Source: Escherichia phage Lys8385Vzw
Sequence record: MT225100
DNA length: 50,953 bases
Reading direction: 5' to 3' (one strand)
Part shown: positions 48,001-50,953 of the stretch, piece by piece
Layout of the letters: each line of letters opens with the position of its first letter
How positions within the stretch are numbered: the stretch's first letter is position 1
Made by a program: the position numbers

Positions 48001-50953
48001 CAAAAGGTGTTCAGTGGATTGCTGGTCTGCTTGCTGCATGGAGAGCTACCGCAGCATGAAGATGATAAAAATGGACTGGAAATTTTTGCTGGTCTGGCTG
48101 ATTCCGTTTTTATGGGTGGTTGCCCGGTTAATTACTGCTATTAAGAGGTAAAGATGTCAGACAAACTCATAATGCTGGCGAAGGGCCTTTGTGTAATCGT
48201 CGGTATTTCATTTTCACTAATGCTGGTTGCTCTTTTTCTTTCCATAACCTGGATGGCGTTGACTTCGGCAGGGCTGGTGGGGTGAGCATAAACCGAATGC
48301 TTTCCGCGTTTACCGTTATTCTGCTGGTGGTCTGTAGTGCGCTGTGGCTGGCAACAGACCATTACCGTGATAACGCCATCACCTACAAAGCGCAGCGCGA
48401 TAAAAAAGCCAGAGAGCTGGAGCTGGCAAACGCAACCATTACTGACATGCAGCAGCGCCAGCGTGATGTTGCTGCGCTTGATGCCAGATACTCAAGGGAA
48501 TTAGCCGATGCGAGAGCTGAAAATGAAACTCTGCGTGCTGATGTTGCCGCTGGTCGTAAGCGCCTGCGGATCAACGCCACCTGCTCCGGTACCGTGCGTG
48601 AAGCCACCGGCACCTCCGGAATGGATAATGCAACCGGCCCCCGACTGGCAGACACCGCTGAACGGGATTATTTCACCCTCAGAGAGCGGTTGATGACAAT
48701 GCAGAAGCAACTGGAAGGGGCGCAGGAATATATCCGCACTCAGTGCCTGAATTAACAGAGCCAGCTTAATCGCTGGCTTTTTCATATCTGAATTTCATCG
48801 CGCATCTCACGCGCATATCACATCCCCGAGCCTTTCAGAAAGTTGAGCCTGAGAACTGTCGTATATGGTGGCGACCATCTCGGGGCGGCTTTTCTGTGAG
48901 ACAGGCTCAATTTTCTGAAAGGTAAGACGCTATGAACTATCCGACGATTGTTAACGGTATTGATTTCCGCGATCTTGTTTTTGTGACAGGCAACGAGCCG
49001 GTGACGGATACCCGAAAGGTTGCCGTAGCATTTGGCAAAGAACACAAAGATGTATTGCGGAAAACAAGAGCCGTTGTTCAACAATGCTCAAAAGAATTTG
49101 CAGAGCGCAATTTTGCGCTTTGCTATGAAAACAATGAGTTACAGAACGGTAAACCCCAGCCCATATATCGAATGACAAAAGACGGTTGGACGATGTTGGT
49201 ATTTGGTTTTACGGGGAAAGCTGCTATGACCTTTAAGGAAGCGTACATTCAGGCTTTCAACTGGATGGCTGAGCTTATTCAGCAAGGTCTGGCGAATCTG
49301 GAGGCGGAGCGCAACGCTGTAATGCTGGAGTACATGAAAGAGAAAGATGTCGCCAGTATGTCAGGTCGTTTGCTCAATCGCTGGGGCAGGGTGAAGAAGC
49401 CTCAGTTGCTGGCAAGGCTGGACAGGCTGGAGCAGCAGGGGCAGATTGCGTTACCCGGATTTGATAAAGGCATTTCAGCCTGACATAGCCATGCGCCGTA
49501 TCGTCGCCGTATCGTCGCCGTATCCCCGCATTAACAGAGACCGCAGCCCGACAGGGAGACTCCTCTACGAGAGTGTGCGGGATAATCAAAAACGATACAC
49601 ACCGGGGTTTACCGCGTTAACGGAGCGCGGCGTTGTCCCTCATGGTCGCTGGTCCGGTGCGATGGTGGAAGAAACCGGACGATGTGTTACCTCGCAAGCT
49701 CTGTGATGTCATGTGTCTGATTTGTGATTTAAGTCGGATAATTGTCGTTGCCATTAAGCAGAGGATTGATGACCGACAGGGTGGCATTGTTAGAATAAGA
49801 CTTATTCTTATCTGTGCCGGGAATGAAAATGAAAAGAAATCTTCCGTTAATTATTTTGTTGTCTTCTCTGGTTATGGGCTGTACGCAACATAAAACAGAT
49901 ATGCCCCGACAGTTGGTTAAGGCATTACCACAATATCCGGCCTATGCAGCGGCAAATTATATAAAGGGACGGGTTGATGTGAAGTTTGATATTGGTGCTG
50001 ATGGTACTGTCACCCGAATTGAGTTTATCCGTTCAGAGCCGCACCATTTGTTTGATGAGCAGGTTGTAAAGGCGATGGCAAAATGGCGATTTGAGAAGGA
50101 CAGGCCGTGTAAAGGCGTGAAGAAAACGTTTATCTTTAGTCCTTCTGCACCCTGATTATTTCATCAGAAATTAATTATCACTCTGTTGTTATTCTGTACA
50201 TCCCGGCAGGGTAAGTCTTGTTCCGTCGGATATGAAGATGAAATATTGTTGGAGGACAGTGGGTACCTGCTCCTGTAACCGAACGTTCATTTCTCGTTAT
50301 TTGTCATGCTGGCCGGGCGCAGATGCGTTGCATCTGTTGCCAGCCTTCTCCTGCAGGCTTCAATAACCCACGCTGAAAAGTTACCGGACCCTTTATGCTC
50401 AAGGGCTATGTTGATTTGTTCAATTATGTGATTGGGGAAACGGATATTGCGGGTTGTGGTTCTGCGGGTCCGGTTTTTCGATGACATTTTCTTTCCTCTG
50501 GTGACAAGTTATATGACGGGGATTTTACATGGCTGAGCTTCGTACACTCCAGAGCAGAATCAAAACACTGAATACCCGACGGGTGAATATTCTGAAGGGG
50601 GAACAGCGTCGTGTCAGTGGCAGTGCCCGGGTTTCCCTCAAGCGTCATATCTGGCTGAGGGATGCCGGGCAGTGCTGTCTCTGTGGTCGTGTGGTTGACC
50701 TCTGTGACAGTGAACTCGATCACCGCATTGCACTTCAGTTCGGTGGTGGTAATGAGGAGACGAATCTCTGGACGCTCTGCACCGAATGCCATCGACAAAA
50801 GTCTGCTCGTGAAGCGGCGGGTGGTATGCCGGACCCGACGCTGCCGGAGGTGTCCGGAGGTCATGGCAGGGCAGACGATATCATCGGACTGTGACCCGCC
50901 CCGGGGGGGATCATCCGGCGAAAAAAACGATCGCTCCGGACACCGCCCCCCCT

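What the first reader, a model, noticed from the sequence alone, without database searches (positions are those of the whole stretch)
49494..49524. Short tandem repeat (gccgtatcgtc, about 3 copies) downstream of Rha
An 11-bp unit repeated in tandem in an apparently non-coding stretch. Possible slipped-strand variable site or protein-binding array.
Basis: seen in the sequence. Interest (0 to 1): 0.3.

Follow-up and report, generated by a model that had tools for sequence, protein, structure and literature searches.

The report
Eleven-base duplication in conserved phage element
The repeat is real, but it is a one-off 11-base duplication at the edge of a conserved, unannotated, apparently RNA-structured 180-base non-coding element that follows the lysis genes of lambda-like phages, including lambda itself; it is not a variable switch.

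Summary
CGCCGTATCGT occurs 2.8 times without mismatch at 49494-49524, 11 nt after the Rha stop codon.

Copy number has two states. About 1.8 copies occur in nearly all of about 4,500 homologous sites in 1,868 of 5,426 complete E. coli genomes. 2.8 copies occur in 47 records, all linked to the same Rha gene. No site has more.

The repeat lies at the 5' edge of a sharply bounded element of about 180 nt (window 49502-49679). The element always sits between the lysis cassette and the packaging genes of lambdoid phages. It is present in phage lambda (46867-47032), phage 434, K-12 prophage DLP12, Stx phages and a Salmonella phage lineage. It is unannotated, has no Rfam match and has no conserved reading frame.

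Alignment supports three hairpins on the + strand:
- 97.6% of cells form standard pairs.
- 13 of 41 pairs carry compensatory double changes.
- G·U cells number 194 against 12 A·C cells.

The two native repeat units are the 5' strands of helices P1 and P2. The extra unit is predicted to stay outside the fold.

The most likely role is a cis-acting structured RNA in the late transcript. That function is inferred, not shown.

The parts
49494..49524 (+). Tandem repeat CGCCGTATCGT x 2.8: two perfect units at 49494-49504 and 49505-49515, and a partial third at 49516-49524.
   Evidence: TRF; exact matches.
49494..49504 (+). The lineage-specific extra 11-bp unit. Which of the two identical units is 'extra' is arbitrary. 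Relatives with the same Rha flank lack it.
   Evidence: Alignments A1 and A5. The covariance model places the native element from 49502.
49491..49493 (+). ATG at the left edge of the element. It is conserved in the E. coli clade and lies 7 nt after the Rha stop. In 2-copy relatives it opens a 10-codon mini-ORF. In this window it opens a 71-codon ORF.
49502..49679 (+). Conserved non-coding element, 180 nt in most relatives, with sharp left and right ends. The proposed structure is three hairpins.
   Evidence: Covariance model R1, 200 bits, E 9e-67. Alignments A2, A3 and A4. Pair counts.
49509..49515 (+). P1 5' strand GUAUCGU, inside repeat unit 2. It pairs with 49592-49598 ACGAUAC.
   Evidence: Pairing probability 0.98, against 0.004 for the identical heptamer in the extra unit.
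49521..49531 (+). P2 5' strand UAUCCCCGCAU, inside repeat unit 3 and beyond. It pairs with 49575-49584 GUGCGGGAUA.
   Evidence: Compensatory C-G to G-C in lambda and DLP12; A-U and U-A in the S107 type.
49542..49569 (+). Distal part of hairpin I. P3' is CGCAG/CUACG, with one C.A mismatch in this window. P3a is CCC-GACA-GGG.
   Evidence: P3a is removed cleanly by a 9-nt deletion in the Lyz12581 type.
49575..49598 (+). 3' strands of P2 (49575-49584) and P1 (49592-49598), separated by the conserved A-rich internal loop AUCAAAA.
49604..49639 (+). Hairpin II. P4 is GGGG/CCC. P5 is CCGCG/CGCGG. The P5 sequence is replaced in other lineages while pairing is kept.
49653..49679 (+). Hairpin III. P6 is UCCGGU/ACCGGA, with a conserved 15-nt loop GCGAUGGUGGAAGAA.
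   Evidence: Compensatory variants are CUCGAU/AUCGAG (S107 type) and UCCUGU/ACAGGA (569R4).
49491..49706 (+). 71-codon ORF produced by the +11, -1 and -1 indels of this lineage. Judged spurious.
   Evidence: One search lists the enclosing TTG-started ORF. No Pfam match. Annotated as WP_170816357.1 in some genomes only. The frame is closed in 57 of 59 variants.
48932..49483 (+). Rha-family regulator gene, the left neighbour of the element.
   Evidence: Pfam PF09669 and PF10549.
49829..50155 (+). TonB_C lipoprotein gene, the right neighbour. It is a moron inserted exactly at the 3' end of the element.
   Evidence: Pfam PF03544.

Best explanation
The array is a native, imperfect two-unit direct repeat plus one lineage-specific 11-bp tandem duplication, presumably from replication slippage.

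The native units are not a repeat 'device'. They are the 5' strands of two stacked helices, P1 and P2, of the first hairpin of a conserved non-coding element of about 180 nt with three hairpins. This element is carried in the late-gene orientation between the lysis cassette and the packaging genes of lambdoid phages, including lambda.

The element has no promoter or terminator of its own, and its left and right neighbours vary. It is therefore most likely read as part of the Q-antiterminated late transcript. There it would act in cis as a structured RNA. My preferred guess is a processing and stability determinant that ends or insulates the lysis-cassette mRNA, in the manner of intercistronic RNase III hairpins.

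The extra unit adds 11 nt just 5' of P1 and is predicted to leave the fold intact. Its only clear consequence is to shift the frame of a short ORF that starts at the conserved ATG.

Shown: the repeat, its two-state distribution, the element with its boundaries and wide distribution, and pairing with covariation on the + strand.

Inferred: transcription as part of the late mRNA, the RNA-level function and the processing role.
For: - Repeat.
- Copy number: 42 records carry the identical 3-copy allele and 5 carry a 97.3% variant that also has 3 copies. All other records have 2 copies, and none covers a 4th unit. In the IMG/VR sample 4 of 126 copies have three units, counting the window and L002.
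- Same architecture with 2 copies: RM9387 and Lyz12581.
- Boundaries and contexts: there are at least 5 left flanks and at least 8 right flanks. The element always follows Rz, a small ORF or Rha, and precedes the terminase genes.
- Distribution: 1,868 of 5,426 E. coli genomes and 4,570 places; 397 phage records; lambda, 434 and DLP12; 24 Salmonella-type viral contigs.
- Structure: RNAalifold finds P1 and P2 pairing the repeat units with distal segments. It recovers P1, P2 and P6 on a sequence-only alignment, at -28.9 kcal/mol against -14.3 for the reverse complement.
- Pair counts on A4: 97.6% of cells paired; 13 of 41 pairs with double changes against 3.6 in shuffles (0 of 500 reach the observed value); slid controls give 1-8.
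- Strand: G.U 194 cells against A.C 12.
- Effect of the duplication: P1 uses unit 2 with probability 0.98 and the extra unit with 0.004.
- No promoter-like or terminator-like site lies inside the element.
- No Rfam family matches.
Against: - Single-sequence folding energies are not better than shuffles (z -1.25 and -0.28).
- Most copies are 90-100% identical, so much of the pairing statistic rests on a few divergent lineages (lambda/DLP12, 434, S107, 569R4, Lyz12581).
- A4 was fitted to the model, which favours the structure, above all for P5.
- The distal part of hairpin I (P3 versus P3') and hairpin II are not settled.
- There is no expression, processing or phenotype data. The RNase III-type role is an analogy from memory, not a test.
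- The strongly conserved ATG at the left edge in the E. coli clade is not explained by the fold.
- The 3-copy allele sits on two element backgrounds. The duplication either arose twice or was moved by recombination.
Confidence: 0.72

Rival explanations
1. Slipped-strand contingency locus. Copy number of the 11-bp unit changes at high frequency and switches the frame of a downstream ORF (10 codons versus 71 codons) on and off.
For: An 11-bp unit shifts the frame. The repeat starts directly after an ATG that lies 7 nt from the Rha stop codon. The 3-copy allele opens a 71-codon ORF that PGAP sometimes annotates. The 3-copy allele occurs on two element backgrounds.
Against: Only two states occur among about 4,500 sites, and none has 3.8 or more copies. 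The 42 carriers are 100% identical over 221-501 nt, so the allele is inherited rather than switching. The ORF has no Pfam match, no Shine-Dalgarno sequence and no conservation. In the second 3-copy background it stops after 31 codons.
Confidence: 0.04
2. DNA-level protein-binding array. Direct repeats spaced 11 bp apart (one helical turn) bind a phage protein such as Rha or a small terminase subunit.
For: The units are phased at 11 bp. The CGCCGTAT core is well conserved in the E. coli clade. The element lies upstream of the packaging genes, and small terminases often bind direct repeats (general knowledge).
Against: Natively there are only two units. In lambda, DLP12 and Stx2 II they are 5/11 alike, while their pairing partners co-vary. 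Variable positions inside the units are those opposite G, alternating U.G and C.G. That pattern makes sense for one strand only. The element occurs with unrelated terminase types, with and without Rha, and up to 1.5 kb from cos.
Confidence: 0.07
3. Leader mini-ORF or attenuator. Ribosomes finishing the upstream gene re-initiate at the ATG, translate 10 codons (MR[GRC]IVAVF[LP]H) across the 5' strands of P1 and P2, and so remodel the downstream RNA. The duplication would break this device.
For: ATG or GTG is present in all five left-flank classes of the E. coli clade, 7-15 nt after an upstream stop codon. The stop UAA lies just after the P2 5' strand. Six of 11 variable sites are third codon positions.
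Against: No Shine-Dalgarno sequence is present. The start codon is CTG in 434 and PhiR47, and CAG in the whole Salmonella-type lineage (21 sequences). In lambda-type copies it is GTG followed by a stop two codons later. Three of the six third-position changes lie opposite G in the helices and are equally explained by wobble pairing.
Confidence: 0.08
4. Single-stranded DNA signal, such as a priming or primosome-assembly site used on the strand displaced during rolling-circle replication, or a merely hitch-hiking 'linker' sequence with no function that promotes recombination between modules.
For: Three hairpins in about 180 nt with strand asymmetry would also suit a single-stranded DNA signal. 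The sharp borders with many different flanks fit the recombination-linker idea of the modular theory.
Against: G.T pairs are frequent, and one is invariant inside the helices, which is more typical of RNA. A pure linker would not keep helices through compensatory changes while its sequence diverges to 74-80%. No such site is known in lambda (my knowledge).
Confidence: 0.09

Closest known systems
Intercistronic RNase III processing hairpins of phage polycistronic mRNAs (T7 R1.1-type sites; lambda sib)
   Same: A structured element inside a long phage transcript, between functional gene blocks. It has a long irregular hairpin of two stacked helices (7 + 11 bp) separated by an asymmetric internal loop, and no promoter or terminator of its own.
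   Different: No cleavage has been shown. The element is larger (three hairpins, 180 nt) and has conserved single-stranded loops. There is no sequence similarity. The resemblance is recalled from memory and was not tested.
Prophage-encoded small RNAs of pathogenic E. coli (AgvB, AsxR, STnc100/PasD, IsrK, Esr41)
   Same: Conserved non-coding sequences at fixed positions of lambdoid prophages. Several are present elsewhere in this window.
   Different: Those lie downstream of PR' or in the immunity region, have their own promoters and Rho-independent terminators, and are in Rfam. This element lies after Rz, has neither signal and has no Rfam match.
HK022 put RNAs (cis-acting antitermination RNA)
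   Same: A cis-acting, multi-hairpin RNA encoded within a lambdoid phage operon, acting without a dedicated promoter.
   Different: put sites lie just downstream of early promoters and have two hairpins of about 70 nt. This element is at the distal end of the lysis cassette in Q-dependent phages. No similarity was tested or seen.
Simple-sequence contingency loci (phase-variable repeats)
   Same: A short tandem repeat whose unit length is not a multiple of three, placed directly after an ATG.
   Different: Copy number is essentially fixed (two states), and the ORF is not conserved.
Iterons and terminase-binding direct repeats (for example cosB R sites)
   Same: Direct repeats at helical-turn spacing upstream of packaging genes.
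   Different: There are only two native units. Unit identity is not conserved in lambda. Conservation follows intramolecular pairing instead.

Membership tests
Phase-variable simple-sequence repeat (contingency locus) | Copy number differs widely among close relatives or within populations | tested here: not met
   Two states only. 47 of 1,876 records have 2.8 copies, the rest have 1.8, and none has 3.8 or more.
Phase-variable simple-sequence repeat (contingency locus) | Repeat lies in a conserved ORF or promoter whose expression it toggles | tested here: not met
   No conserved reading frame. No Pfam match. No promoter-like site at the repeat.
Protein-binding direct-repeat array (iteron-like) | Several units whose sequence identity is conserved across relatives | tested here: not met
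   Two native units. They are 9/11 alike in the E. coli consensus but 5/11 in lambda and DLP12.
Protein-binding direct-repeat array (iteron-like) | A cognate binding protein | not testable with these tools
   No binding data. The element occurs with and without Rha and with unrelated terminases.
Structured cis-acting RNA element | Base-paired helices kept through compensatory and wobble-compatible changes | tested here: met
   13 of 41 pairs have double changes, against 3.6 in shuffles (0 of 500). 97.6% of cells are paired, against 37-65% when slid. Caveat: the alignment was fitted to the model.
Structured cis-acting RNA element | Strand specificity (G.U allowed, A.C avoided) | tested here: met
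   194 G.U cells against 12 A.C cells. The reverse complement folds at -14.3 against -28.9 kcal/mol.
Structured cis-acting RNA element | The strand is transcribed | not testable with these tools
   Inferred from constant co-orientation with the late operon. No RNA data were available.
RNase III processing site | About two helical turns of duplex RNA, cleaved by RNase III | not testable with these tools
   P1 + P2 give 18 bp with an internal loop. Cleavage is untested.
Hfq-type trans-acting sRNA gene | Own promoter and Rho-independent terminator with a U tail | tested here: not met
   No promoter-like or terminator-like site in 49491-49680. The sequence after P6 differs between contexts.
Any Rfam 15 family | Covariance-model match | tested here: not met
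   Nothing at gathering thresholds. Only chance-level hits at E up to 10.
Leader-peptide attenuator | Conserved start codon, ribosome-binding site and frame | tested here: not met
   The first triplet is ATG in 38 sequences, GTG in 8, CAG in 21 and CTG in 2. Lambda-type copies stop after 2 codons. No Shine-Dalgarno sequence.

The most novel reading that the evidence does not exclude
The 180-nt three-hairpin element is a functional, so far undescribed structured RNA class of lambdoid phages. It is present in phage lambda itself at 46867-47032, between bor and lambdap78. It would act on the late transcript or as a processed stable RNA. The 11-bp duplication is then a natural 5'-edge variant of it.
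Probability: 0.5. Interest if true: 0.6.

Novelty: new member of a known kind. Interest (0 to 1): 0.4.

Why it matters
The repeat itself is ordinary: a fixed 11-bp duplication with no sign of switching.

Following it up uncovered something more interesting. A discrete, strand-specific, structure-conserving non-coding module is found in about a third of complete E. coli genomes (median two copies) and in the textbook phages lambda and 434. No annotation, Rfam family or paper I could find accounts for it.

If it is a processing or stability element of the late transcript, it would add a post-transcriptional control point between lysis and morphogenesis genes. In Stx phages that point would lie downstream of the toxin and lysis genes. 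The element is directly testable in lambda.

Its 3' end is also a precise insertion point for cargo genes ('morons').

Tried and rejected
- Rfam at gathering and at permissive thresholds found nothing relevant. ARAGORN found no tRNA.
- Text search for four sequence strings from the element in 8 million papers gave no hit.
- Literature on prophage sRNAs was read and rejected on position:
  - Tree 2014, EcOnc/AgvB/AsxR.
  - Zhu 2026, Pas sRNAs.
  - Lambda RIL-seq: PreS/LPR1, LPR2 and 6S RNA.
  - All of these map to PR', the immunity region, the ea10-ral interval or structural operons. The RIL-seq supplements have no entry for the bor-lambdap78 interval.
- Coding: the 71-aa ORF has no Pfam match, and no frame is conserved. 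I ran no further search on it.
- The first RNAalifold model of the 3' half was discarded. MAFFT had misaligned the variable hairpin II. It was replaced by a manual model checked on divergent lineages.
- P3 (CAGAG/CUCUG) was set aside in favour of P3' (CGCAG/CUGCG), which survives in the Lyz12581, 434 and S107 types. This choice is not settled.
- A possible pseudoknot between the linker CACC and the P6 loop GGUG has one compensatory change (S107: UACC/GGUA) but is absent in lambda-type copies. It is not claimed.
- The genome-contig scan for taxonomic breadth mostly returned lambda control-DNA contamination.
- Single-sequence folding z-scores were uninformative.

Full report
**Observation.** The window reads ATG CGCCGTATCGT CGCCGTATCGT CGCCGTATC CCC at 49491-49527. 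Tandem Repeats Finder gives 49494-49524, period 11, 2.8 copies, 100% matches and score 62. This is the only perfect tandem repeat in the 51-kb window, and the unit occurs nowhere else in it. The upstream gene (48932-49483) has Pfam Phage_pRha and ORF11CD3 domains. The neighbours are an Rz spanin gene (48189-48755), a TonB_C lipoprotein gene (49829-50155), a DUF3950/YlcI gene (50287-50487, minus strand) and an HNH endonuclease gene (50529-50894). The region is 100% identical to four Stx1a-converting phage records and to prophages of O103, O111, O121 and other E. coli.

**Copy number.** A 501-nt query showed that the sequence from the second repeat unit rightwards for about 175 nt is extremely widespread, whereas the left flank is not. 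I then built a query with 5.8 units plus the downstream sequence.
- It matched 4,451 places in 1,844 of 5,426 complete E. coli genomes.
- The best alignments begin at query base 34 (2.8 units, 42 records at 100% identity). All other listed alignments begin at base 45 (1.8 units).
- No place covers 80% of the query, which a 3.8-unit allele would do.

A 221-nt query refined the picture. 42 records are identical to the window. Five more, at 97.3%, also have three units. Records with the same Rha-TonB architecture at 93% are 10 nt shorter and have two units.

UTME-3, one of the five, has CGCCGTATCGT CGCCGTATCGT CACCGTATTCC and a different right flank, but the identical Rha protein. Either one duplication linked to Rha was spread by recombination inside the element, or it arose twice. 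In an IMG/VR sample, 4 of 126 copies have three units, counting the window and an identical genome. Copy number is thus two-state and inherited, not hypervariable.

**What the repeat belongs to.** Alignment of 59-66 distinct copies shows a module of 180 nt (95 of 119 copies are exactly 180 nt; this lineage has 189). Its ends are sharp. The left end, at ATG (GTG in a few copies), adjoins at least five unrelated flanks. The right end, at GAAGAAACCGGA, adjoins at least eight.

The module always follows the lysis cassette. It lies 9 nt after the Rz stop codon, or after a small ORF, or after Rha. It always precedes the terminase genes, with or without cargo genes in between. It occurs widely:
- It is in 397 phage records.
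- It is in phage 434 at 47419-47595.
- It is in phage lambda at 46867-47032, between bor and lambdap78.
- It is in the K-12 cryptic prophage DLP12 at 579008-579174, between borD and ybcV.
- It is in 933W-type Stx2 phages and in a Salmonella S107-type lineage with 24 viral contigs.

Nothing is annotated there, not even in the 213-feature record of phage 434. Rfam has no match.

**Not coding.** Close relatives differ by 1-nt indels and by a 9-nt deletion. No frame on either strand is open in most variants. In two-copy relatives the ATG opens only ten codons (MRGIVAVFLH and similar). The first triplet is CTG in the 434 type and CAG in the whole Salmonella-type lineage. In lambda-type copies it is GTG followed by a stop after two codons. 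In the window the +11 duplication combines with two 1-nt deletions (GGGG to GGG, CCCC to CCC) to give a 71-codon ORF (49491-49706). That ORF has no Pfam match. PGAP calls it a hypothetical protein in some genomes and not in others. In UTME-3 the same frame stops after 31 codons.

**Structure.** RNAalifold on the first alignment paired GUAUYGU of unit 1 with ACGAUAC 80 nt downstream (P1). It paired UAUUCCYGCAU of unit 2 with GUGCGGGGAUA (P2). The variable positions inside the units are pyrimidines opposite G, alternating U.G and C.G.

Folding each sequence type separately gives the same first hairpin every time. Divergent lineages supply compensatory changes:
- P2: C-G becomes G-C in lambda and DLP12. 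Two C-G pairs become A-U and U-A in the S107 type.
- P1: U-A becomes C-G through a U-G intermediate.
- P4: G-C becomes U-A.
- P5: CCGCG/CGCGG becomes CUGUG/CGCAG (434), CAGC/GCUG (S107) or CUCAU/AUGGG (Lyz12581).
- P6: UCCGGU/ACCGGA becomes CUCGAU/AUCGAG (S107) or UCCUGU/ACAGGA (569R4).

I built a covariance model from my manual structure. It found one copy per locus, at 96-231 bits, in all lineages. On that alignment:
- 97.6% of 1,976 cells form standard pairs.
- 13 of 41 pairs show double changes, against 3.6 in shuffles (0 of 500 reach the observed value) and 1-8 when partners are slid.
- On the closely related set alone the figures are 98.5% paired and 3 pairs with double changes.

RNAalifold recovers P1, P2 and P6 on a sequence-only alignment, at -28.9 kcal/mol against -14.3 for the reverse complement. 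G.U cells outnumber A.C cells 194 to 12. The constrained strand is therefore the + strand, the sense strand of the late operon.

Several caveats apply:
- Single-sequence z-scores are not significant.
- Most copies are close relatives.
- The model-fitted alignment favours the structure, especially for P5.
- P3 versus P3' is unsettled.

**The repeat within the structure.** In the window P1 is 49509-49515 with 49592-49598, and P2 is 49521-49531 with 49575-49584. The covariance model places the native element at 49502-49679. In the computed ensemble the P1 3' strand pairs with unit 2 with probability 0.98 and with the identical heptamer of the extra unit with probability 0.004. The duplication is thus an 11-nt extension 5' of an intact fold. 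In lambda the two 'units' are only 5/11 alike while P1 and P2 persist. The direct repeat is a by-product of two similar helices, not the selected feature. This argues against a DNA-binding array.

**Mechanism.** The following points are shown:
- The element is conserved and strand-specific, and it preserves its helices.
- It is co-oriented with the late genes.
- It has no promoter-like or terminator-like site of its own.

From this I infer that it is transcribed as part of the PR' late transcript and works as RNA in cis. My preferred role is a processing and stability element that delimits the lysis-cassette mRNA. This rests on analogy with intercistronic RNase III hairpins of phage mRNAs, recalled from general knowledge and not tested. 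I hold that specific role at roughly one chance in three. A processed trans-acting RNA, a leader mini-ORF device, a single-stranded DNA signal and a DNA-binding array are the rivals.

**Comparison and novelty.** The repeat fails the tests for a contingency locus and for an iteron-like array. The element meets the testable criteria of a structured cis-acting RNA, but it belongs to no Rfam family. It is not any of the prophage sRNAs I could check by position. I found no paper containing its sequence, although the library lacks many subscription journals. I therefore file it as a new member of a known kind. The repeat alone merits low interest. The element raises the finding to moderate interest.

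Noticed in passing
window 43274-43548 and 34602-34787: Four Rfam sRNAs lie elsewhere in the prophage: STnc100 (43274-43487, +), AgvB (43489-43548, -), isrK (34602-34678, +) and C4 antisense RNA (34700-34787, +).
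   Followed up: no
loci L129-L162 (genome-contig scan): About 28 of 34 hits to the element pattern are in unrelated taxa (Pseudomonas, Kitasatospora, Cohnella, Flavobacterium and others). They sit on contigs of about 48.4-48.5 kb or about 3.5-3.6 kb. These sizes suggest phage lambda control or spike-in DNA contaminating public assemblies.
   Followed up: partly
window 49673-49680 and 50277-50284: The TonB_C lipoprotein moron is bracketed by AACCGGAC (the 3' strand of P6) and AACCGAAC. Relatives without the moron (L004) join exactly at this 8-mer and so carry a C.A mismatch in P6. This suggests insertion or deletion by microhomology at the end of the element.
   Followed up: partly
window 48799-48821: A second, weaker 11-bp tandem repeat (CGCGCATATCA x 2.1, 91% matches) lies in the region upstream of Rha.
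   Followed up: no
window 48759-48785: A G+C-rich hairpin (AGCCAGC...GCTGGCT) followed by TTTTT lies directly after the Rz stop codon on the + strand. It is terminator-like and would have to be read through by the antiterminated late transcript.
   Followed up: no
window 49491-49706; L168 792-1007; L002: PGAP annotates the 71-aa ORF as hypothetical protein WP_170816357.1 in some genomes but leaves identical DNA unannotated in others.
   Followed up: yes
L147 2972-3139, L148 5417-5584: Copies from E. albertii and Escherichia sp. MOD1 replace hairpin II with a short CCGG...CCGG hairpin and have the lambda-type P6 loop (UCUGGCACGGAAGAA). L148 also has two mismatches in P2 and may be decaying.
   Followed up: no
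window 50895-50953: The window ends in a G/C-run-rich stretch (CCCCGGGGGGG ... CCGCCCCCCT) just after the HNH gene and before the terminase genes of relatives. It may be the cos region of an HK97-type packaging module.
   Followed up: no
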